Source: a virus. From it: a DNA stretch of 64,000 bases. Below are positions 2,151 through 31,815 of this stretch, piece after piece. Positions within the stretch are counted from its first letter, which is position 1, and each line of letters opens with the position of its first letter. Both the position numbers and the translations under genes were made by a program. The stretch lies in IMG/VR virus record IMGVR_UViG_3300045988_154277; one strand, 5' to 3'. Below the pieces are notes generated by a model. That model did not search any database. It saw only the letters and a list, made by a program, of their open reading frames with translations, and was not told the DNA's origin.

Positions 2151-4244
2151 TCAGAAATACTCCTTCAGCTTGCGAAAATCGAATGGTGTGAACTGCTGTG
2201 CTTTCGAAGCTTGTTGTTTCACTTGGTCAGCACTGATCAGGTTATCATCGACCAACTTATCGTCTACCAAAGACTCTAAGTGTCGCAGTTCACGTTCATA
2301 CGATGTCTTCACCATAGCGTTGGAAGTGCCCAAGATCAATCCTTTTAACTCTCCGATCCTCTCACGGATCTTAAGCTGTCTACTCTTCGCTTCTGGATCC
2401 ACATGCTCTCCTTCCAGGTTCACTCCTTTCAGGACTTCTCCTTTGGGGATCCCATACAAGTGGTGGTTCTTACCATAAAGAGCGAAGAAACACGTTAACA
2501 ACCAAGCGATCACCATATCGTCATGGGATCCGATCGGATGGTCAACACGTCCATTCCTCACAGTAAGTGATTTGATTTCACTTGCCAAATCAGCATCAAA
2601 CAACCGGTTTGCCATGTACTGAAGACTGGTGATCAATACACGCCCATAGAGGATATTACGACTATCCTGACTGCTGGTGGTGTTGAACCCGAAGTGCTTA
2701 CGTTTGGTTCCATCTCCGATGTCGATCTGACTGATATCCAAGAACCCATCGCTTCCATCTTGGAAATAGGTATTATAGATCCGATAGAACGGGTTGATCC
2801 TCTTCTTGATCATCATGTCGATCAGAAGATCGATCATGAACGCTCCGTTCTTATTACGTTCTGGGATCAGGATACTGTTCGGTAGCATATCCATCAACTC
2901 TGCGATACACGATGCGACATTTACCAAGTTAGTAACGTTACACTTACACGTTGCTACCACAGAGAGATCCAATGGATCAGAGATCACCAATGTAGTATTA
3001 TCACGTCCTACGTTGTCCGAAGTATCCAACCCGATCAGATAGTTCCTCTTGCGATTTTCATCATTCATCAGGATAGAACGTTTAACATACCAACGCACGA
3101 TCAACCCACCGTGTGTGGTGAACTCCGTAGGTTCGCAGATCGATGCGTTGAGGCGATTCAACAACTCGATAGGAACGATCGACTGTCCAGTACCCAACTG
3201 CCATTCGTTGAGATAGTCGACAGCCACCGTAATAGCATCTTTCCCATCGGACATCTCTTCCAACCACGCATCATCCTCTCCTAACTGTTTATAGGAGTAT
3301 TCGAGATACATCATCGTCTTGCCGCCCATCCCTCTCATCCACTCTCGAACAGCAGCAACGTCTTTAAGGTCATAAACACACTCGTTAAACCGTGCACTGT
3401 TGGACTTCAGATGGAACGCATAAGCGCCTGCTGGGTCGTTGAGCATACCTGCCGTTGTAGTGAGGATGTTCGCAGAGGGGATCCCTCGTTCGAATGCCAT
3501 CTTCCTAGCGGTAGCACACGCACCTGTGGCAGATGGATACGACTTATGGTTGTTCACATAGTACGCCATCTCATCCCACCATTGTGAAGACGTGGTCTCA
3601 CCACGTCCCTGTCTTGCAGCACGACGCATATCCTGCTGAGCAACGAAGGATTTAACAGCATTCTTCAATCTACGATAAGTAACGTCTTCCTGGTTCTTGG
3701 TGTCGTTCTTATAATCGACAAGGTACTCAGGAAGACTGTTACGGATCTCCTTGATACGTTTAATGTTCTCAGAACGAAGACTATCGTCCTTCGCGAAGAT
3801 CCCGATAGTGATGTTCTTAGCAGCTAAGAACTCCTCCCACGACAGGATACACACAACACCGATGGTCTTACCCTTCTGGCGAGGCATGGTTAAGAAGCTA
3901 TCGATGGAGTTCAAGAAACACCAGTTCAGAGCTAAGTTCGCTCTGGAGAACTGATAGTGGATCGGATCACCGCCAGGGGCAGGCACACGAATCACTTCTC
4001 TTAAGTAATACCAAGGGTTGACCTTACACTCATAAGCGATCCTCTGTCTTAGTTCTACAGAAGGATCCTTTAGATCGTAAGGGTCATATTTTTGGAGATC
4101 TGGTTGTGACAAGAACAAGAAGAACTTATTGTTCTTGATCCCCATATCCTTCAGGATACGATACATACGGAAACAAGAAGCATTCGTCGTGTTCGTATCC
4201 AAAATACCACTGTGAGTATTATAATCATCTAAGAATAGTAGCAT
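2151..4244 (-). CDS. terL: terminase large subunit (T4 gp17-like)
   Basis: Walker A segment MPRQKGKTIGVVCILSWEEF...PEYL parallels T4 gp17 SRQLGKTTVVAIFLAHF...PDFL; C-terminal nuclease-domain motif HPIGSHDDMVIAWL resembles gp17 EEGYHDDLVMSL. Confidence 0.9.
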   Translation of the reverse strand: MLLFLDDYNTHSGILDTNTTNASCFRMYRILKDMGIKNNKFFLFLSQPDLQKYDPYDLKDPSVELRQRIAYECKVNPWYYLREVIRVPAPGGDPIHYQFSRANLALNWCFLNSIDSFLTMPRQKGKTIGVVCILSWEEFLAAKNITIGIFAKDDSLRSENIKRIKEIRNSLPEYLVDYKNDTKNQEDVTYRRLKNAVKSFVAQQDMRRAARQGRGETTSSQWWDEMAYYVNNHKSYPSATGACATARKMAFERGIPSANILTTTAGMLNDPAGAYAFHLKSNSARFNECVYDLKDVAAVREWMRGMGGKTMMYLEYSYKQLGEDDAWLEEMSDGKDAITVAVDYLNEWQLGTGQSIVPIELLNRLNASICEPTEFTTHGGLIVRWYVKRSILMNDENRKRNYLIGLDTSDNVGRDNTTLVISDPLDLSVVATCKCNVTNLVNVASCIAELMDMLPNSILIPERNKNGAFMIDLLIDMMIKKRINPFYRIYNTYFQDGSDGFLDISQIDIGDGTKRKHFGFNTTSSQDSRNILYGRVLITSLQYMANRLFDADLASEIKSLTVRNGRVDHPIGSHDDMVIAWLLTCFFALYGKNHHLYGIPKGEVLKGVNLEGEHVDPEAKSRQLKIRERIGELKGLILGTSNAMVKTSYERELRHLESLVDDKLVDDNLISADQVKQQASKAQQFTPFDFRKLKEYF

Positions 4245-9117: not shown

Positions 9118-9197
9118 TGGTCCGTGTGGAGGGATTCGAACCCCCGACAACTCCTGCTCCCAAAGCAGGCGCGCTAACCAGACTACGCTACACACGG
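9118..9197 (-). tRNA. tRNA-Pro (anticodon UGG), CCA encoded
   Basis: manual cloverleaf: acceptor CCGTGTG/CACACGG; anticodon arm CCTGC-TTTGGGA-GCAGG; T-arm GGGGG-TTCGAAT-CCCTC; 3' ACCA. Confidence 0.8.
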
Positions 9198-9206
9198 ATA
9201 TTGAAT

Positions 9207-9395
9207 TCATCGATTACCGTAACCAGCAGGAAGCTCACCAAGATCGTATCCTAGATCTAGATGACTCGCCTCTTCTTTTATTTTCTTATTCCGGATAGCT
9301 TCGGAGATGATCGCTTCTCGTTCTGCTTTTGCTTTCTTAAGGAAGTCTGCTGTGATCGCACACATACCTACATCCAATTCATCATCGAGGTCCAT
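9207..9395 (-). CDS. small acidic hypothetical protein between two tRNAs (62 aa)
   Basis: internal start MDLDDELDV with CAGGAGACAAC RBS; the ORF-track start would overlap tRNA-Gln. Confidence 0.4.
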   Translation of the reverse strand: MDLDDELDVGMCAITADFLKKAKAEREAIISEAIRNKKIKEEASHLDLGYDLGELPAGYGNR

Positions 9396-9419
9396 CAGTT
9401 GTCTCCTGTATTCAAAGAT

Positions 9420-9490
9420 TAGTCCCACCAGGATTCGAACCTAGACTAAAAGATCCAAACTCTTCTGTGCTACCATTACACCATGAGACT
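9420..9490 (-). tRNA. tRNA-Gln (anticodon UUG)
   Basis: acceptor AGTCTCA/TGGGACT (one G-U pair); D-arm GGTG..CAC(C); anticodon arm GAAGA-GTTTGGA-TCTTT; T-arm CTAGG-TTCGAAT-CCTGG; an alternative fold would give Pro. Confidence 0.65.
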
Positions 9491-9506
9491 ACGAAGTTGT
9501 ATAGGG

Positions 9507-9639
9507 TGAATGTGGTAGGACTCGAACCTACACCAGTTTTCACTGACTTGTCATTCTCTGAGCTTGAGGTATATATCTCAGGATTCTCCAAGCGACCGAG
9601 GGACCAGCTCGGGACTCTAACCAGTTGAGTTACACATTC
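9507..9639 (-). tRNA. tRNA-like gene with a 62-nt insertion (canonical acceptor, D, anticodon arm with GGU [Thr?] and T arm)
   Basis: 5' GAATGTG..D-arm..CCGAG-CTGGTCC-CTCGG, then 62 extra nt, then GTAGG-TTCGAGT-CCTAC-CACATTC-A; the insert carries a GTATATAT promoter-like motif in the opposite orientation. Confidence 0.4.
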
Positions 9640-9640
9640 A

Positions 9641-10139
9641 TGGTGGAGGTGGCGGGTTATTCTCCCGCGTCTTACCTTACTTCAGATCAGTTTCGTTCAC
9701 AAGCTTAGTTTCGCTTATATTAGTCACACAGTCGATGTACGAAACTTGAGGAATCTCAGAGTGCTACTCTGTATCATTCTAACTGTACTGTGTCAAGTCA
9801 CTTCATGTGGGCGCTACTCCACTTCATGGATGCTCCCAGTAGTGTACCATCCTGGGCTACATCGACAACCAATCTGTGCGCATATTCTAACGATTCACGA
9901 TTGGTGAACCTCATTAGAACCCGAACCAAAGAAACGAGAGCGAATCATCGAGTCTTTGAAATTGCACTACTAGTCTCGTTATCGGAGTCCGAGACGTTCG
10001 TGGCCATCACGCAGCAGCGAGAAGGGCTTCTTCAGTGTTGTTGACACTTATTGTTTTGATCAGCTTTTATACAGGCCAACTGATCAACCTGTGCTTGCAA
10101 CTTAATCTTCCACAAAGCAATCGAAATAAAATCACCCCC
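9641..10139 (-). ncRNA. ssrA: tmRNA (ssrA-like), about 499 nt
   Basis: 5' GGGGGTGATTTTATTTCGATTGC versus E. coli GGGGCUGAUUCUGGAUUCGACGG; 3' GACGCGGGAGAATAACCCGCCACCTCCACCA versus E. coli GACGCGGGUUCAACUCCCGCCAGCUCCACCA; tag frame ...NNTEEALLAAA then TGA, starting about 90-95 nt from the 5' end. Confidence 0.75.
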
Positions 10140-26786: not shown

Positions 26787-27086
26787 TCACTTGGAGGCTT
26801 CTTCTGCATCACTTCCAGACGCGGACACCTCTTCTGATTCTGCGGGATTGAGAACACGATCCATCAGATCCACGACATCCTTCACGGTGACACACTTCTC
26901 AGCATCTTCATCCGTGATGTTGACATTGTACTCTTCTTCGAAGGACATCAGAACTTCGACTTTGTCGAGGCTGTCCATCGTCAGATCTTCCAAGGTCATA
27001 TCCTCGGTGATCGGATCATCTTGATCGTAAGCCACCTGTTCTGAGATGACTTCGATTACTTTCTGTTTGACTTCTTCACGAGTCAT
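26787..27086 (-). CDS. acyl carrier protein homolog with acidic C-terminal extension
   Basis: aligns along its length to E. coli AcpP: LEDLTMDSLDKVEVLMSFEEEY versus [22 protein letters not shown] (the DSL serine is the phosphopantetheine site); EDAEKCVTVKDVVDLM versus EEAEKITTVQAAIDYI. Confidence 0.75.
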   Translation of the reverse strand: MTREEVKQKVIEVISEQVAYDQDDPITEDMTLEDLTMDSLDKVEVLMSFEEEYNVNITDEDAEKCVTVKDVVDLMDRVLNPAESEEVSASGSDAEEASK

Positions 27087-27095
27087 TCCATTCTC

Positions 27096-27365
27096 CTATG
27101 CAGGTTGTTCAGCTTCGTCGAACTGTCTGGGATCGTTGATATAACAGTTCAAGGCGATCGCTGCTTCTTTCGTGATCATGACATCACTTGTGATCCCGAT
27201 GTCATCTCCCGCCAACAGTACATTAGCAGGGTGCATGTTCATTAATGCAGGTATCATTTGCAACTCTTTGATGGATACTCCATTCATCGCTACTACCCGT
27301 GCCTTATACACGGGGCTAGACTGTCCTTTCGTCATATGTACACGTGCACTTGTACAGTTAGACAT
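27096..27365 (-). CDS. hypothetical protein (about 89 aa from Met57; the ORF-track N-terminal extension to 27533 is doubtful)
   Basis: stop TAG sits inside the ACP RBS (tight coupling); TGGAGACGGTATG RBS for Met57; the upstream 200 nt is GC/purine-rich and looks like structured RNA. Confidence 0.4.
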   Translation of the reverse strand: MSNCTSARVHMTKGQSSPVYKARVVAMNGVSIKELQMIPALMNMHPANVLLAGDDIGITSDVMITKEAAIALNCYINDPRQFDEAEQPA

Positions 27366-28124
27366 ACCGTCTCCAGTCGTTGAAGCGGATCTATCAAGTT
27401 GAACTCCTTCAGTACCCGTTAAGTACCTCAACCGTGGTCTATCGGGCTCGCTAGACGCTACTCTAGCACCTTCTCTCTTCGTGGAGATGTGCGCTTCGCA
27501 CCCTACTACCTTACCCCTCACCCGGCAGGCCATTCACTTGATATATTTAGATCTGAGCTGCTGATAGCACCATTTTGCTGATCATACACATCGACTGTAA
27601 CCATCTATGTTCAACATATAGCAAATCAAGGTTGTTACACCAAAATTACAGTCGTATGCATCATCAACCATCGATAGAGAACCGGAGTGTGGTCAAGATA
27701 GAGCAACACGTATCGAATGTGCGCTACAACACCAGCCACGCGATGTATCTCCAGCTTTTATTTCATCTCATCGACATCCCAAGACGTTGTTTCTGTCTCA
27801 CGACACCTCAGTGAGGTCTCTTGGGCTTTAGGACGTCCCAGCTATTTACGGTAATTCACGCACACAGTTTCCTGTATACGGGCCAATGATCGGTTAGATC
27901 ATAAGCATCTCCATCATAGTCACTTACATTCCAAGTACTAGCGTGTGATTCAAGTACTCCGGTTCGCTTAAGGAACCTGCCCATACTCTTCGTATGGAAA
28001 TCGATTATATCTCAACCCTCAGCTTGATCTGTTAGGGCAACCTTCGTTTACGTCTACCATTACACACGTTGTAGACCTACGTGGTCTTTCACCACTAATC
28101 TGTGAACACATCCTGATAATAGTT

Positions 28125-28209
28125 TGGTAGGCGATAAGGGACTCGAACCCTTACGTCTTACGACACTGGATCCTAAATCCAGAGCGTCTACCAATTCCGC
28201 CAATCGCCC
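28125..28209 (-). tRNA. tRNA-Leu (anticodon UAG), class II, CCA encoded
   Basis: acceptor GGGCGAT/ATCGCCT; anticodon arm CTGGA-TTTAGGA-TCCAG; long variable arm; T-arm AAGGG-TTCGAGT-CCCTT; ACCA. Confidence 0.8.
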
Positions 28210-28212
28210 AAA

Positions 28213-28287
28213 TGGAGCCCCGTGCAGGAATTGAACCCGCCTCCCAACCTTACAAGGGTTGACTTGAGCCACTCAAGCTAACGGGGC
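28213..28287 (-). tRNA. tRNA-Thr (anticodon UGU), CCA encoded
   Basis: acceptor GCCCCGT/ACGGGGC; anticodon arm CAACC-CTTGTAA-GGTTG; T-arm GCGGG-TTCAATT-CCTGC; TCCA. Confidence 0.7.
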
Positions 28288-28982
28288 ATTATCAAGACTT
28301 CGTTACTGGTTACACATTATGACCATCCCTTAGCACGTATATTTGTACGCTTTTATTTCAGCATAGGACATCTCGATGTTTCTTTCTATCTTTCGATCAC
28401 ATTCACGCCCGCCTTTTGAGCCACGTTGTAGTACATCGAGCTTTAGTTGCTTCCAGTTATTAGAAGGTTTACGCACCACATCCTTTCAGATATAGTGTTC
28501 TGTGCTAACCCCTTGATAATCAAGATGTTAGACAAAATTTGGGGCCGCGGATATTTCGGGAGATACTCCTATCGTCACATCTCCATACTCGCGTTTGAAC
28601 TTTGTTGCAAATAATGTAAATATGGCACCTAGTCGAAGGGACGGATTCCTGCCAACACCTATGTTCGTTACAAGACGCTACTCTTATAACCGCGCCATTA
28701 CGCGCAGTACTACTTTCGTAGTTCTTAGGTCAGACTAGATCTCAAACTTGACTATCGTCAAGCCCACTACCGTTTCCATCACCATATCGCTTGTGATGTA
28801 CTCCCGGAGATTAACCCGGGATAGTCGTTGCACCGTATCTCTCCGTTAAGGAGAGGCTTGGCCAGGGTTAGCATATACCTCACGATACTTAGCGTTCCCT
28901 GTTTTCAGTAGTGTCTGCTACGGGGTATCACTATCCCGTAGTCCTTGTAGTTTGACAGCTTACTTTGTCAATAAGTTGTCAA

Positions 28983-30134
28983 TTACGTTAAGAGACAGGT
29001 CAATCCCCTTACATAGTCCATGCCATATTTTCTGCACTCTTCTTTGCACTCTTCGATCAGAACATGCAACAGGTTGTAGATGTCCTCATCGAACTTTGCC
29101 AATGCAGCGTTGTGTTTCGCTACCGCTTGCGGTATCGTCAATCCCATCCGTTTGGTCATCAGATTGATCAATTCCAATTTCCAACAGACCACACCGATCA
29201 GGTATGGAAGATGGAGTTCATCCGCTTCATGTGGTTCGGTGATCGGTACGATCACACCTCGGAACGAACAATGGAGTCGTGCACCCATAACCAACTTACG
29301 GATATAACCGATCTTACTGATCAGTTTCACCTTGGAGATCAGAGTGCTGTATTCCACGATCGACCGTTGGATCTCCCACATCCGTTGATCCACGAACTTG
29401 GGACCAACTGTTCCATAGTTGAATACGTAGATCAGAGCGGACAACTCTGCTTTCGCATCCAAGATCGCTTCCACGGTATCATCACTGTATTGCATGGTAC
29501 CGGAGGTTGTGATCAGATGGAGAGCTTGGTTCAACACCGGAATATGTCGAATGAAGATCCTGTTGCGATAGCGCTGGATATATTCGGCGATCCCTTCTGA
29601 CCTAGCTCTTGCGGATGGTTGTTTTAACGGCGCATAATCGTTGAGGAAGAACCTTACGATGTCGTCGAAGTTATTGTAGAAATACTCAAACCCCTGACCG
29701 AGCAGTCCTTTCAACGGTTGCGGTAACTCAACATCGACATTGAGTAAGGACTCCAATATCGATACGGATTTGCACTTACCGAGCCACTTATCCAACACTC
29801 GATAGACTGCAGGATGGATGACACTTGGTGCAAAAGGAGGCAACTCCAACCAAGCACGGAACTTCACCTTATCGGCGAAGTAAGTACGAACAGGTGTATG
29901 ACACCTGCTACACACAGTGCCTTCATAGAAGTTACCTTCGAGATGTCCACACTCACAAGATGCGACGAAGTTCAGTTCCTTGACACCGTCCTGGAATAGG
30001 TTCTGGATCTGTTCTCTCATCTGACTCTTGGATGTGAACTGCTGATCACAAGGGATGACTTTCGCATCCGGATCCTCCCAGAACATCTTCTCGTAGTCTG
30101 TCGGGATCAACCGTACAAGTTTCCGTGTTGCCAC
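28983..30134 (-). CDS. multisubunit RNA polymerase beta' subunit, N-terminal fragment (split gene)
   Basis: zinc finger CECGH..C.RCHTPV like E. coli beta' [42 protein letters not shown] like [32 protein letters not shown] like [31 protein letters not shown]..ELHLP like GKRVDYSGRSVITVGP..RLHQCGLP; ends before NADFDGD; GTG start with AAGGAG RBS. Confidence 0.75.
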   Translation of the reverse strand: [383 protein letters not shown]

Positions 30135-30231: not shown

Positions 30232-31815
30232 TCAGAGGCAGTAGATGCTCTGCTGATTGGCGTACGGATACTGACCAACCATGACACGGTTCATCTGGGA
30301 GAACCCAGTGAAGTCGTTCGCCTGAGAAGTCATCAGAGGCGCAACGCTGTAGGTCGAGCTGGACGGAGTATCGTAGTTGAGCTTGACGCCCGCCTGATTC
30401 AGGATGGTCGCGATCGCGATCGCGAGTTTGCTGTCGAGGACCACGGTCGTGGTGGTGTAGAGATTCTCAACACCATCGGAGAAGATCCCCTTGACTTCGT
30501 TGATGTGTCCTTCCGGAAGGTTGGACTGACGCAGCAGAGGACGGATCTTGCTGAGGGCGTTCTGCATCTTCGGAGCCAGACGGAGGTAGTCCACCCAACG
30601 GGTGTCCTTGCCGATGCCGTTCTCCTGGTACACACCGGTGAAGTTCCGGCACATCCAGACAGCGACGTCACGTCCGAGGATCTCCGGACCGAACCCACCG
30701 TAGATGCCGTTGCCGAGGAACATCTGCAGAGACGCCACGAACTCAGCACGCTTGTCCTGATAGATCATGGCATCGATGCCGACCGGACGCGCACGTCCTT
30801 CGGTGATGTCGACCGCGAGGAACGGTTTGATCAGCGACTCGTTCACGAAGCGATGGAACTCGTCCACGCTGGTGATGTTGTAGGGCTGCTGAGTCTTCGG
30901 ATCCGTGTACAGGTTGCCGAGGTTCGGCTGATCCTTCTGAGCGAAGGAGGCGTACGGACGGCTCCACAGGGACTGCATGATGAACGCATCGGTCGCCACG
31001 GAGAGCGCCAGGGCCATCAGGTTCTGGTTCGGGATCTTGCAGATCACGTCGGTGATCACGGCAACCGGGATGAACTTACCCGCACCGGTATCTTCAGGAG
31101 AGAGGATACGGGTGTAGCCGGTGATCGCCATGAACGGCTGCTGATCGATTTCTGGCTGACCGAACCGGTTCGTGGTGCCGGTGGGCACGTCGATGCAGAG
31201 CAGGATGCCGATATCGTTCCGAGCCGGAACCGCATGCGGGCTGTTCTTGGAGGTCCAGTCATCGACCGCTTCTTTGCGGGTGATCACGGAGAACCGTTCG
31301 TTGCGGAGGGACTCGACGTTCAGGACGCTGCCACGAACGCAGGAGTTGATCGAGTTCATGATGAACGCGGCCATGTTGTCCGCCTTGGCATAGTCTTCTT
31401 TGCGAACCACGATGGACTGCAGAAGCTTCGCATCGCCGCGCATGTTCTTCAGCATGTTCGCGAAGTCACGGGACTGTTCGGAGATGCTGTTGCTGTCGAC
31501 AGCGCCATAGGTTTCAGCGAAGATCAGGTTGATCGCGAACTTCGACTGTTCGTCGATGAACGCACGCCCTTCCGCACGGGTCGTCGCGATCGGATAGGAA
31601 CTGATCGTGGACTTGAAGTCGACCAATTTCTTGTCGATCTTCTGGATGTAGAACTGACCTTCTTCGGACAGTCCGGTTGCCGATGCGGTTCCTTTCAGGA
31701 ACTCGCTCAGGCGGATGGCGTTCGGGATGGTGGTCTTCGGAGCGGCGTTGTCCATCGGCGAAGATCCGTTCATGTTGGTGTTGTTGGCTGTGGAGCCAGC
31801 GGTTTTCTGTGCCAT
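30232..31815 (-). CDS. abundantly expressed early protein with anomalously high GC; putative chimallin (phage-nucleus shell) or major virion protein
   Basis: AAGGAGGAATTACTATG RBS; promoter motif upstream; about 58% GC against 42% background; adjacent to the beta'-N gene, as chimallin is said to be in phiKZ (recollection, not checked); no sequence-level confirmation. Confidence 0.45.
   Translation of the reverse strand: MAQKTAGSTANNTNMNGSSPMDNAAPKTTIPNAIRLSEFLKGTASATGLSEEGQFYIQKIDKKLVDFKSTISSYPIATTRAEGRAFIDEQSKFAINLIFAETYGAVDSNSISEQSRDFANMLKNMRGDAKLLQSIVVRKEDYAKADNMAAFIMNSINSCVRGSVLNVESLRNERFSVITRKEAVDDWTSKNSPHAVPARNDIGILLCIDVPTGTTNRFGQPEIDQQPFMAITGYTRILSPEDTGAGKFIPVAVITDVICKIPNQNLMALALSVATDAFIMQSLWSRPYASFAQKDQPNLGNLYTDPKTQQPYNITSVDEFHRFVNESLIKPFLAVDITEGRARPVGIDAMIYQDKRAEFVASLQMFLGNGIYGGFGPEILGRDVAVWMCRNFTGVYQENGIGKDTRWVDYLRLAPKMQNALSKIRPLLRQSNLPEGHINEVKGIFSDGVENLYTTTTVVLDSKLAIAIATILNQAGVKLNYDTPSSSTYSVAPLMTSQANDFTGFSQMNRVMVGQYPYANQQSIYCL

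What the first reader, a model, noticed from the sequence alone, without database searches (positions are those of the whole stretch)
27340..28982. About 1.6 kb with no credible ORFs: tRNA-Leu/tRNA-Thr flanked by GC- and purine-rich structured sequence and an rRNA-like stretch
In a gene-dense phage this gap stands out. Beyond the two tRNAs (28125-28287) there are many short perfect hairpins (for example CCCGGAGATTAACCCGGG, CTACGGGATAGTGATACCCCGTAG). There is a GC-rich block at 27340-27540 that the ORF track mistranslates as the N-terminus of ORF 27096-27533. A segment on the minus strand (AGCTGGGACGTCC...GGTGTCGTGAGACAG, about 27790-27850) echoes the conserved 23S rRNA stretch GAGCUGGGUUUAGAACGUCGUGAGACAG. 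Candidates are a large ncRNA, a degenerate intron, decayed tRNA genes, or a mimic of rRNA.
Basis: seen in the sequence. Interest (0 to 1): 0.6.

Follow-up and report, generated by a model that had tools for sequence, protein, structure and literature searches.

The report
Three introns, one carrying tRNAs
The 1.6-kb "empty" stretch is three self-splicing group I introns and two tiny exons that interrupt an essential jumbo-phage RNA polymerase gene at its catalytic site, and one of the introns carries two intact tRNA genes inside a loop of its ribozyme, an arrangement I found no report of in phages.

Summary
Window 27366-28982 has no credible ORF, holds tRNA-Thr and tRNA-Leu, and is full of hairpins.

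It is not intergenic. On the minus strand it is the interior of one gene, the orthologue of phiKZ gp55 (the N-terminal beta-prime part of the phage's non-virion RNA polymerase, nvRNAP). The layout is:
- exon 1: 30134-28991
- intron 1: 28990-28656
- exon 2: 28655-28535 (121 nt)
- intron 2: 28534-27923
- exon 3: 27922-27904 (19 nt, encoding DYDGDA)
- intron 3: 27903-27288
- exon 4: 27287-27096

Joining the exons gives a 491-aa ORF without stops. It aligns without gaps across all three junctions to uninterrupted homologues. Relatives supply an empty-site allele for each intron.

All three introns show the group I core, a U before the 5' splice site and a terminal G.

The two tRNAs lie exactly in the terminal loop of helix P6 of intron 2. 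In seven close relatives this loop, or a P5 hairpin loop in one of them, carries different tRNA sets, and once an HNH endonuclease. In a 99%-identical phage, intron 3 sits at another site.

The "rRNA-like" stretch and the "GC-rich block" are peripheral domains of intron 3.

Introns in jumbo-phage RNAP genes are known. tRNA cargo in a phage group I intron appears to be new. Splicing and tRNA maturation are inferred, not shown.

The parts
28991..30134 (-). Exon 1 of the gp55-like nvRNAP beta-prime-N gene (1144 nt). It ends ...ACC TGT CTC T|.
   Evidence: PHROG 2987 'RNA polymerase beta subunit', E 1.1e-58, covering only profile positions 8-372 of 478. L005 and L016 read straight through this point as ...TCLFGRNP.
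28656..28990 (-). Intron 1, group I, 335 nt, with no ORF. It starts UAACGUAA and ends ...AUAGGUG.
   Evidence: Rfam Intron_gpI matches 28707-28982 over the full model at 49.7 bits (gathering score 50), E 5.6e-11. There is a U at -1 and a terminal G. The core is 90-97% identical in L006, L015 and L018, where a PF13392 HNH ORF sits in the first hairpin loop. The site is empty in L005 and L016.
28535..28655 (-). Exon 2 (121 nt), encoding (F)GRNPSLRLGAIFTLFATKFKREYGDVTIGVSPEISAAPN(F).
   Evidence: tblastn with the uninterrupted Phabio and FLC4-4C proteins hits 28653-28537. Alignment to P0009, P0017 and P0018 is gapless.
27923..28534 (-). Intron 2, group I (IA2-like, with P7.1/P7.2 hairpins), 612 nt, carrying two tRNA genes in the P6 terminal loop.
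   Evidence: Rfam Intron_gpI matches over the full model at 20.7 bits, E 0.006, with a 167-nt insertion in the P6 loop. Helices P3, P4, P6, P7, P8 and P9 occur in canonical order, with complementary but different strands in L006, L010, FishSpeaker and AerS_266. blastn links it to the FishSpeaker and AerS_266 introns in the same gene; the FishSpeaker intron scores 72.5 bits in Rfam. P1 is UUU|UGU paired with ACAGAA, and it covaries in L011. The intron ends in G. The site is empty in L006.
28288..28298 (-). 5' strand of P6 in intron 2 (GUCUUGAUAAU). It abuts the first base of tRNA-Thr.
   Evidence: It forms 11 base pairs with 28110-28120.
28213..28287 (-). tRNA-Thr(UGU) with encoded CCA, inside the P6 loop of intron 2.
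   Evidence: ARAGORN and Rfam at 43.9 bits. In relatives it is replaced by a different tRNA-Thr(UGU), or by a long-variable-arm tRNA(UGU).
28125..28209 (-). tRNA-Leu(UAG) with encoded CCA, inside the P6 loop of intron 2, 3 nt after tRNA-Thr.
   Evidence: ARAGORN and Rfam at 56.4 bits. It is absent from L005, L016, L015 and L018 and present in L011 and L017. Across the three alleles there are 5 compensatory pairs and 100% pairing.
28110..28120 (-). 3' strand of P6 in intron 2 (AUUAUCAGGAU), 5 nt after the CCA of tRNA-Leu.
27904..27922 (-). Exon 3, a 19-nt micro-exon (TGACTATGATGGAGATGCT). It encodes the catalytic Asp triad (F)DYDGDA.
   Evidence: Six-frame translation. It is contiguous with exon 4 in L015 and L018, and with exon 2 in L006. 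Uninterrupted P0017 reads APNFDFDGDAMH.
27288..27903 (-). Intron 3, group I, 616 nt, with large P5 and P6 extensions. It starts UAUGAUCUAACC and ends ...GGGUAGUAGCG.
   Evidence: There is no Rfam hit. On the alignment of four copies, the hand-mapped helices P1, P2, P3, P4, P5a, P5b, P6, P7 (pseudoknotted with P3), P8 and P9 give 97.3% paired cells and 9 pairs with compensatory change, against 0-3 in the slid controls. There is a U at -1 (GCU paired with GGC) and a terminal G. The site is empty in L015 and L018, where a 98.8%-identical copy sits at GRNPS|LRLG instead.
27400..27535 (-). Insert of 136 nt in the terminal loop of P6 of intron 3.
   Evidence: RNAalifold on four copies predicts a closing stem plus three hairpins, with 5 covarying pairs. 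No tRNA or other Rfam match was found.
27793..27843 (-). P4/P5/P5a/P5b region of intron 3.
   Evidence: P4 is GCUGG paired with UCAGC. P5a is CCCAAGA paired with UCUUGGG. P5b is GUC-GUGA-GAC. The 12-mer was checked.
27096..27287 (-). Exon 4 (192 nt including the stop codon), encoding MNGVSIKELQMIPALMNMHPANVLL...EAEQPA*.
   Evidence: The GGAG...ATG at 27365 lies inside intron 3 (P3'/P8) and is conserved as RNA in copies at another site.

Best explanation
The gap is the interior of a single minus-strand gene, the orthologue of phiKZ gp55. That protein is the N-terminal beta-prime part of the non-virion RNA polymerase (nvRNAP) of phiKZ-like jumbo phages.

Shown:
- The gene is interrupted by three group I introns clustered around the catalytic NADFDGD region, leaving exons of 121 nt and 19 nt between them.
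- Joining the four exons gives an uninterrupted 491-aa ORF.
- Intron 2 carries tRNA-Thr(UGU) and tRNA-Leu(UAG) as cargo in the terminal loop of its P6 helix. This is a peripheral position where group I introns usually carry homing-endonuclease ORFs.
- The introns are mobile. Relatives carry HNH endonuclease ORFs in loops of introns 1 and 2. The tRNA cassette in P6 is swapped, lost or expanded between near-identical phages. Intron 3 occupies two alternative sites that both end in GCU.

Inferred:
- The pre-mRNA is transcribed through the whole stretch.
- Each ribozyme folds and uses exogenous guanosine to cut after the U that forms a U.G wobble in P1. It then ligates the exons after its terminal G.
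- After or during splicing, host RNase P and 3' processing enzymes release the two tRNAs, which already carry CCA.
For: 1. Gene identity and exon map.
- Exon 1 matches a phage RNAP family but lacks the last ~100 profile positions.
- The missing residues are found in-frame in three further pieces.
- The spliced CDS is 1476 nt and 491 aa with no internal stop. Its last 105-114 aa, which span all three junctions, align with 0 gaps to the uninterrupted homologues P0009, P0017 and P0018 (E 1e-35 to 2e-39).
- The spliced protein matches phiKZ gp55 (PDB 7OGP_A) at E 1.3e-36 across residues 33-456.

2. Empty-site alleles.
- The intron 1 site is uninterrupted in L005 and L016.
- The intron 2 site is uninterrupted in L006.
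- The intron 3 site is uninterrupted in L015 and L018 (...GGCGACGCCATGAATGGC...).

3. Ribozyme identity.
- Intron 1: Rfam Intron_gpI at 49.7 bits, E 5.6e-11.
- Intron 2: full-model Rfam alignment with E 0.006, canonical helix order with compensatory differences in five homologues, and homology to the FishSpeaker intron in the same gene, which scores 72.5 bits.
- Intron 3: 97.3% pairing and 9 compensatory pairs, including three pair types at one P3 position and two in P7.
- All three have U(-1) and a terminal G.
- The three introns share core motifs at equivalent positions.

4. tRNA cargo.
- The 167-nt P6-loop insertion equals tRNA-Thr-CCA, UUU, tRNA-Leu-CCA and AACUA, closed by an 11-bp stem.
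- tRNA-Leu alleles keep the cloverleaf through 5 compensatory pairs and keep the anticodon.
- Three unrelated tRNA bodies at this locus all keep the anticodon UGU.

5. Transcription. No terminator-like site lies on the minus strand inside the stretch.
Against: - No RNA data were available. Splicing, its efficiency and tRNA maturation are inferred.
- Intron 1 scores 0.3 bits below Rfam's gathering score, intron 2 scores only 20.7 bits, and intron 3 has no Rfam hit. For introns 2 and 3 the assignment rests on my own helix mapping, with few independent sequences (3-5).
- P1 of intron 1 is uncertain. My best pairing, UGUCUCU with GCAGACA, has a C.C mismatch, encloses two hairpins and abuts P3.
- P1 of intron 3 pairs only three exon bases.
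- Window codon usage gives no clear demand for these tRNAs: CUA is 5% of Leu codons and ACA is 27% of Thr codons.
- RNase P cleavage of the tRNAs before splicing would cut the pre-mRNA. How the two processes are ordered is unknown.
Confidence: 0.9

Rival explanations
1. Bipartite or trans-splicing variant. RNase P and 3' processing excise the tRNAs from the nascent transcript faster than intron 2 folds. The pre-mRNA is then cut in the P6 loop, and the two halves are held together by the 11-bp P6 stem and the P3/P7 pairings and spliced in trans. Alternatively the cut is a regulatory switch that trades polymerase mRNA for tRNAs.
For: The tRNAs sit with 0 nt and 5 nt of spacer inside a long, stable P6 stem. 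Both have encoded CCA, as expected for fully processed tRNAs. From established knowledge, group I introns broken in peripheral loops do trans-splice in some organelles.
Against: Nothing in the sequence requires it. Everything lies on one strand within 612 nt, and no promoter-like or terminator-like site separates the halves. This is a variant of the main explanation rather than an alternative identity.
Confidence: 0.15
2. The tRNAs are passengers without translational function. They could be pseudo-tRNAs, leftovers of endonuclease-driven cassette insertion, or tRNA-shaped scaffolds that merely stabilise P6.
For: Cargo turnover is high. It includes a truncated tRNA half in L011 and L017 and a T-arm-like remnant in L010. 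Window codon usage shows no special need for CUA. Intron 3 carries a non-tRNA structured domain at the same position.
Against: Both window tRNAs score well above the Rfam gathering score. tRNA-Leu alleles show 5 compensatory pairs with the anticodon unchanged. Three different tRNA bodies all keep UGU. Both carry CCA.
Confidence: 0.12
3. The RNAP gene is dead. The stretch would then be an intergenic tRNA islet flanked by decaying gene fragments and intron relics, and the polymerase function is supplied elsewhere.
For: Exon 1 ends in an in-frame TAA six bases into intron 1. The downstream piece has a GGAG-ATG that could start an 89-aa ORF.
Against: The four exons join into an intact ORF with the catalytic DYDGD. 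They are conserved without gaps against uninterrupted homologues. The same exon set is kept in eight relatives of 79-99% identity, although their intron content differs. The GGAG-ATG region is conserved as intron RNA at a different site.
Confidence: 0.03
4. A free-standing large structured ncRNA next to tRNAs (GOLLD- or ROOL-like), or an rRNA mimic.
For: The stretch has many conserved hairpins, lies close to tRNAs, and contains a 12-nt identity to a universal 23S segment.
Against: No Rfam family other than tRNA and Intron_gpI matches convincingly, even at E up to 10. The 12-mer is a GNRA hairpin shared with related introns.
Confidence: 0.02

Closest known systems
Group I intron with HNH endonuclease gp210 in the vRNAP beta-prime gene (gp211/209) of Pseudomonas phage PhiPA3 (PMC11620839)
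   Same: It is a group I intron in a multisubunit RNAP gene of a phiKZ-like jumbo phage, inserted at the conserved catalytic aspartates. Relatives of the window carry HNH ORFs (PF13392) in the equivalent introns.
   Different: The PhiPA3 case is one intron in the virion RNAP paralogue, and its cargo is an endonuclease. Here there are three introns in the non-virion RNAP gp55 orthologue, none of the window's introns has an ORF, and one carries tRNA genes.
Unannotated introns in the gp55 orthologues of Shewanella phage FishSpeaker, Aeromonas phage AerS_266 and Xanthomonas phage LucasX
   Same: They are in the same gene. FishSpeaker and AerS_266 have the same intron family as intron 2, inserted at DFDG|D with a textbook P1 (CGACGGU paired with GCCGUCG). 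Rfam scores are 72.5 bits for FishSpeaker and 54.7 bits for LucasX.
   Different: They have one or two introns and no tRNA or other cargo, and P6 is a short hairpin. GenBank annotates the exons as separate proteins.
Multi-intron phage genes and IA2 introns of T4 (td, nrdB, sunY), Staphylococcus phage Twort orf142, and Jug or crAss-like gut phages (PMC12880540; T4 and Twort from my own knowledge)
   Same: Several self-splicing group I introns lie in one essential gene. They have P7.1/P7.2-type peripheral hairpins and carry cargo in terminal loops. Introns sit at active-site codons.
   Different: The cargo in those cases is a homing endonuclease or nothing. I know of no tRNA gene inside them, and four of my literature searches found none.
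Intron-encoded tRNAs in fungal mitochondrial group I introns (Ophiostoma minus atp6-i1 with tRNA-Ile; cox1-1281 with tRNA-Arg; PMC7902536), and hexacoral ND5 group I introns that host whole genes (from my own knowledge)
   Same: Ordinary genes, including tRNAs, are nested in a group I intron of a protein-coding gene.
   Different: Those are organellar genomes, where every transcript is tRNA-punctuated. The reports are single annotations, without evidence of cassette turnover or of placement in a defined ribozyme loop. None is in bacteria or phages.
Homing endonucleases in phage tRNA gene clusters (T4 SegB; T5 HNH enzymes; from my own knowledge)
   Same: In L017 an HNH endonuclease lies between the intron-borne tRNAs, next to a truncated tRNA half. 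This is the pattern expected from endonuclease-driven cassette exchange.
   Different: Those clusters are free-standing, not inside a ribozyme.

Membership tests
Group I intron (Rfam RF00028) | Conserved core helices P3-P9 in the order P3, P4, P5, P4', P6, P7, P3', P8, P7', P9, with the P3/P7 pseudoknot | tested here: met
   Intron 1: full-length covariance-model alignment at 49.7 bits, E 5.6e-11, which is 0.3 bit under the curated cut-off. Intron 2: helices found in that order, and the homologues keep the pairing with different sequences; Rfam gives 20.7 bits, E 0.006. Intron 3: 67 pairs, 97.3% paired, 9 compensatory, with slid controls at 27-41% paired.
Group I intron (Rfam RF00028) | The 5' exon ends in U, which forms a U.G wobble with the internal guide sequence in P1 | tested here: inconclusive
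   U(-1) is present at all three sites. Intron 2: UUU|UGU pairs with ACAGAA, with a G-C to A-U change in L011. Intron 3: GCU pairs with GGC in the window, L006 and L015, although the rest of P1 is remodelled. Intron 1: the partner G is only a proposal (GCAGACA) with one mismatch.
Group I intron (Rfam RF00028) | Terminal guanosine (omega-G) as the last intron nucleotide | tested here: met
   The introns end ...AUAGGUG|...AAUGUAAG| and ...GUAGUAGCG|. The placements are fixed by protein collinearity and by the empty-site alleles.
Group I intron (Rfam RF00028) | Removal restores the host gene | tested here: met
   The result is a 491-aa ORF that aligns without gaps to uninterrupted homologues and to phiKZ gp55.
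Group I intron (Rfam RF00028) | Guanosine-dependent self-splicing | not testable with these tools
   This needs in-vitro transcription with GTP, or RNA-seq.
tRNA (Rfam RF00005) | Cloverleaf with a 7-nt anticodon loop and a T-loop, scoring above the curated cut-off | tested here: met
   Scores are 56.4 and 43.9 bits against a cut-off of 29. ARAGORN calls Leu(UAG) and Thr(UGU). Leu alleles show 23 of 23 pairs kept and 5 compensatory.
tRNA (Rfam RF00005) | Processed and aminoacylated in vivo | not testable with these tools
   There is only indirect support: encoded CCA and conserved anticodons.
phiKZ gp55-type nvRNAP beta-prime-N subunit | Sequence homology including the Zn-ribbon Cys motif and the NADFDGD catalytic loop | tested here: met
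   PDB 7OGP_A (PHIKZ055) matches at E 1.3e-36. The protein contains CECGH...CSRC and NFDYDGD. PF00623 is found on the uninterrupted homologues.
Nucleus-forming jumbo phage (chimallivirus) | A chimallin gene, in known members immediately upstream of gp55 | tested here: inconclusive
   A 527-aa ORF lies at that position (30232-31815). It has no Pfam or PHROG hit and no BLASTP similarity to FishSpeaker chimallin (E 2.6). No structure comparison was done.
GOLLD, ROOL or other large ncRNAs; rRNA fragment | Match to the family covariance model | tested here: not met
   No such hit at E up to 10 in three scans of the region.

The most novel reading that the evidence does not exclude
In this clade of gut jumbo phages, group I introns act as carriers of tRNA genes. 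A peripheral ribozyme loop works as a cassette site. That site is P6 in most relatives, a P5 hairpin loop in L006, and the region after P7 in L009. tRNA genes, sometimes with an HNH endonuclease, are inserted, exchanged and lost there, always keeping a UGU-anticodon tRNA. On this reading the tRNAs are expressed by being spliced out with the intron of an essential polymerase gene. They would spread with the intron by homing, and they would give the otherwise selfish intron a selectable benefit. A second novel element is that the same intron (98.8% identical) has moved between two sites 140 nt apart in one gene by changing only its P1 hairpin. Both sites end in GCU, which fits relocation by reverse splicing guided by a 3-nt guide sequence.
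Probability: 0.35. Interest if true: 0.75.

Novelty: new variant of a known kind. Interest (0 to 1): 0.55.

Why it matters
1. Annotation. The catalytic subunit of the phage's own RNA polymerase is currently invisible here. Gene callers see a 383-aa fragment, a 1.6-kb gap and an 89-aa or 145-aa "hypothetical protein". GenBank records of FishSpeaker, AerS_266 and LucasX have the same problem.

2. Intron biology. A ribozyme loop that hosts ordinary tRNA genes extends the known cargo of phage group I introns beyond homing endonucleases. It sets up a concrete conflict or coupling between RNase P processing and self-splicing that can be tested in vitro. The 19-nt exon that encodes the whole Mg-binding Asp triad between two ribozymes is an extreme case of introns guarding an active site.

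3. Intron mobility. Near-identical phages with the same intron at two sites, and with different tRNA cassettes in an otherwise 92-98%-identical intron, are natural before-and-after pairs for studying ectopic transposition and cassette exchange.

4. Phage tRNAs. If the cargo is functional, intron homing becomes a route by which tRNA genes move between co-infecting phages.

Tried and rejected
- Rfam at gathering thresholds found only tRNAs and a tmRNA in the window. The introns appeared only with E-value thresholds on short stretches. Intron 3 never appeared and had to be mapped by hand.
- I first placed intron 3 two bases upstream (GATG|CT...TAG|CG). That gave a G before the splice site, which is abnormal for group I. 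Allowing the Ala codon to come from exon 3 (GCU) gives U(-1) and a terminal G in the window, L006 and L015 alike. My first exon 3 coordinates were also wrong by 10 nt and were corrected.
- I took the hairpin that Rfam calls P1 in intron 1 (CAACUUAU...AGUAAGCUG) as a candidate splice site. I rejected it because the exon would then contain the in-frame TAA, and because L005 reads through 20 nt upstream.
- The 89-aa ORF with a GGAG site (27096-27365) was rejected as a separate gene. Its first 26 codons are intron 3 RNA (P3', P8, P7', P9), which is conserved at another site in L006 and L015.
- MAFFT could not align the 3' halves of the intron 2 family, so I listed the helices per sequence instead.
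- A search of IMG/VR for the intron 3 J8/7 motif found only the two contigs already known.
- Codon usage in the window was uninformative about the need for the tRNAs.
- BLASTP of the upstream ORF against a chimallin was negative.
- Four literature searches for tRNA genes inside phage group I introns found nothing. They turned up only fungal mitochondrial cases.
Full report
**What is at the coordinates**

Window 27366-28982 has no ORF longer than 79 aa, and the short ones overlap on both strands. ARAGORN and Rfam find tRNA-Leu(UAG) at 28125-28209 and tRNA-Thr(UGU) at 28213-28287, both on the minus strand. At curated thresholds Rfam finds nothing else here.

**The flanks are one gene**

- The ORF upstream on the minus strand (28983-30134, 383 aa) matches the phage family "RNA polymerase beta subunit" (PHROG 2987, E 1.1e-58). 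It covers only profile positions 8-372 of 478.
- A permissive Rfam scan placed a group I intron directly after it (28707-28982, 49.7 bits against a cut-off of 50, E 5.6e-11). A second, weak full-model match at 27980-28501 spans both tRNAs.
- blastn showed that 28296-28471 resembles sequence just downstream of the orthologous gene in Shewanella phage FishSpeaker and Aeromonas phage AerS_266. In FishSpeaker the annotated protein ends ...YNSDFDG, and the next small ORF continues DQMYVM... This is an unannotated intron in the catalytic motif.
- Six-frame translation of the window found the missing residues in three pieces: GRNPSLRLGAIF...SAAPNF, DYDGDA, and MNGVSIKELQMIPALMNMHP....

**Exon map (minus strand)**

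| Part | Coordinates | Length |
|---|---|---|
| Exon 1 | 30134-28991 | 1144 nt |
| Intron 1 | 28990-28656 | 335 nt |
| Exon 2 | 28655-28535 | 121 nt |
| Intron 2 | 28534-27923 | 612 nt |
| Exon 3 | 27922-27904 | 19 nt |
| Intron 3 | 27903-27288 | 616 nt |
| Exon 4 | 27287-27096 | 192 nt |

- The joined CDS is 1476 nt and 491 aa with a single terminal stop.
- The last 105-114 residues cross all three junctions. They align with zero gaps to three uninterrupted metagenomic homologues, P0009, P0017 and P0018 (48-57% identity, E 1e-35 to 2e-39).
- The whole protein matches phiKZ gp55, the N-terminal beta-prime part of the non-virion RNA polymerase (PDB 7OGP_A), at E 1.3e-36 over residues 33-456.
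- Exon 3, only 19 nt long, encodes the Mg-binding Asp triad.

**Empty-site alleles**

Eight relatives of 79-99% protein identity were recovered: L005, L006, L011 and L015-L018, plus the window itself.

- L005 and L016 read through the intron 1 site (...TCLFGRNP) and carry a different, HNH-containing intron a few bases downstream.
- L006 reads through the intron 2 site (APNFDYDG).
- L015 and L018 read through the intron 3 site (GGC GAC GCC ATG AAT GGC, i.e. GDAMNG).

These fix the junctions independently of any RNA model.

**Are they group I introns?**

- All three have U before the 5' splice site and G as the last base.
- Intron 1 aligns over the full Rfam model.
- Intron 2 shows P3, P4, P4', P6, P6', P7, two extra hairpins (P7.1/P7.2-like, as in phage IA2 introns), P3', P8, P7' and P9, in that order.
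  - The homologous introns of L006, L010, FishSpeaker and AerS_266 keep each helix with different sequences. For example, P7 is GAUUA/UAAUC, GAGUA/UACUC, GAUCA/UGAUC or GACUA/UAGUC.
  - Its P1 (UUU|UGU with ACAGAA) changes G-C to A-U in L011.
- Intron 3 has no Rfam hit, probably because of roughly 280-nt P5 and 136-nt P6 extensions.
  - Mapped by hand and counted on four copies, its 67 pairs are 97.3% paired, with 9 compensatory pairs. These include A-U, U-A and C-G at one P3 position and two changes in P7. The slid controls gave 0-3.
- I first misplaced intron 3 by two bases, which produced a G at -1. The correct placement (GCU|UAUGAUC...GUAGUAGCG|AUG) gives U(-1).G in the window, L006 and L015 alike.
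- The weakest point is P1 of intron 1, which remains uncertain.

**The tRNAs are cargo in P6 of intron 2**

- The Rfam alignment puts a 167-nt insertion in the P6 terminal loop.
- The loop is closed by an 11-bp stem (GUCUUGAUAAU with AUUAUCAGGAU). It contains exactly tRNA-Thr-CCA, UUU, tRNA-Leu-CCA and AACUA.
- Between the same flanks, relatives carry different cargo:

| Locus | P6-loop cargo |
|---|---|
| Window | tRNA-Thr (type a) + tRNA-Leu |
| L005, L016 | tRNA-Thr (type a) only |
| L015, L018 | a different tRNA-Thr(UGU) (type b) |
| L011 | truncated half of type b + a long-variable-arm tRNA(UGU) + tRNA-Leu |
| L017 | the L011 set plus an HNH endonuclease between the tRNAs (PHROG 1271, E 3.6e-23) |

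- The surrounding intron stays 92-98% identical.
- In L006 the tRNA sits in a P5 hairpin loop.
- In L009 (60% identity) a tRNA(CAU) starts after the 5' strand of P7, and the contig ends there.
- L010 has only a T-arm-like remnant.
- More distant relatives have introns without tRNAs, or no introns.
- The three tRNA-Leu alleles keep all 23 pairs through 5 compensatory changes, with the anticodon unchanged. This argues that the tRNAs are under selection as tRNAs.

**Intron mobility**

- HNH ORFs (PF13392) lie in the first hairpin loop of intron 1 in L006, L015 and L017, and in the P1 loop of intron 2 in L011.
- Intron 3 is at DGDA|M in the window, L005, L011, L016 and L017. It is at GRNPS|L in L006, L015 and L018.
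- The L015 copy is 98.8% identical to the window's except for the first ~20 nt, which form the P1 hairpin. Both target sites end in GCU.

- CCCGGAGATTAACCCGGG is a peripheral hairpin of intron 1, between P7 and P3' (alignment).
- CTACGGG...CCCGTAG is a hairpin in the 5' region of intron 1.
- The "GC-rich block" is the P6 extension of intron 3 (27400-27535) plus its P7-P9 region. The extension folds into a conserved multi-hairpin domain with 5 covarying pairs.
- The "rRNA-like" stretch is P4, P5a and P5b of intron 3. GUC-GUGA-GAC is a GNRA hairpin followed by an A-rich strand, as in related introns. The match to 23S rRNA is not beyond chance once one mismatch is allowed.

**Mechanism**

Shown:
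- the exon-intron architecture
- the ribozyme cores
- the placement of the tRNAs
- allelic variation among relatives

Inferred:
- read-through transcription; no minus-strand terminator-like site was found
- guanosine-initiated self-splicing
- release of the tRNAs by RNase P and 3' processing from the excised intron, or from the precursor

If tRNA processing comes first, intron 2 would have to work as two pieces held together by P6.

**Comparison with what is known**

- Group I introns at the catalytic aspartates of a jumbo-phage RNAP gene are known (PhiPA3 gp210, in the virion RNAP paralogue).
- Multi-intron genes are common in some gut phages.
- tRNA genes inside group I introns have been annotated in fungal mitochondria.
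- I found no report of tRNA genes inside a phage or bacterial group I intron. This is absence from the searched library only.

**Verdict**

The finding is real and is now explained. The region is a known kind of element in a new variant. It is ordinary as "introns in a phage polymerase gene". It is unusual in its tRNA cargo with cassette turnover, in the 19-nt catalytic micro-exon, and in the intron that occupies two sites.

Noticed in passing
window 9507-9639 (-): A tRNA-like gene scores 45.9 bits in Rfam. ARAGORN in intron mode folds it as 'tRNA-SeC(tca)', with an 8-bp acceptor stem, a long variable arm and a 38-nt insertion in the anticodon loop. It could be an opal-suppressor or Sec-like tRNA, which would bear on the genetic code this gut phage uses.
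   Followed up: partly
window 9641-10139 (-) and 9118-9491 (-): The phage encodes a tmRNA (71.2 bits, E 1.1e-25) next to two different tRNA-Pro(UGG) genes.
   Followed up: no
window 30232-31815 (-): A 527-aa ORF has 57-61% GC in a window of about 47% GC. It lies directly upstream of the gp55 orthologue, where phiKZ-like phages encode chimallin. It has no Pfam or PHROG hit and no BLASTP similarity to FishSpeaker chimallin.
   Followed up: partly
L006 9147-9230; L011 3384-3467; L017 (P6 cargo positions 45-128): An 84-nt tRNA has anticodon UGU (Thr) but a long, class II-type variable arm. ARAGORN calls it only at a relaxed threshold, and Rfam gives about 47 bits. Class II architecture with a Thr anticodon raises the question of which amino acid it carries.
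   Followed up: no
L001 (FishSpeaker) 3816-4200; L012 (AerS_266) 2325-3040; L003 (LucasX) 3598-4055: Published jumbo-phage genomes annotate the gp55 orthologue as a truncated RNAP protein plus a small hypothetical protein. The gaps between them are group I introns: 72.5 bits in FishSpeaker, two introns in AerS_266, and 54.7 bits in LucasX.
   Followed up: partly
L013 (Enterococcus phage phiEF17H) 1923-5127: The ribonucleotide reductase gene is annotated in several pieces. A segment between two of them is similar to the P4-P6 region of the window's intron 2, so introns of the same family probably split nrdE in Kochikohdavirus phages.
   Followed up: no
window 26787-27086 (-): An acyl carrier protein gene (PF00550, E 5.9e-10; PHROG 5934) lies immediately downstream of the polymerase gene. 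It is conserved in that position in L006 and L011.
   Followed up: no
L015 (ENA UONW01000014, 279,059-bp contig): A human-gut metagenome contig is 99% identical in exon 1. This suggests the window comes from a roughly 280-kb jumbo phage of the human gut. More distant relatives come from other JGI metagenomes.
   Followed up: no
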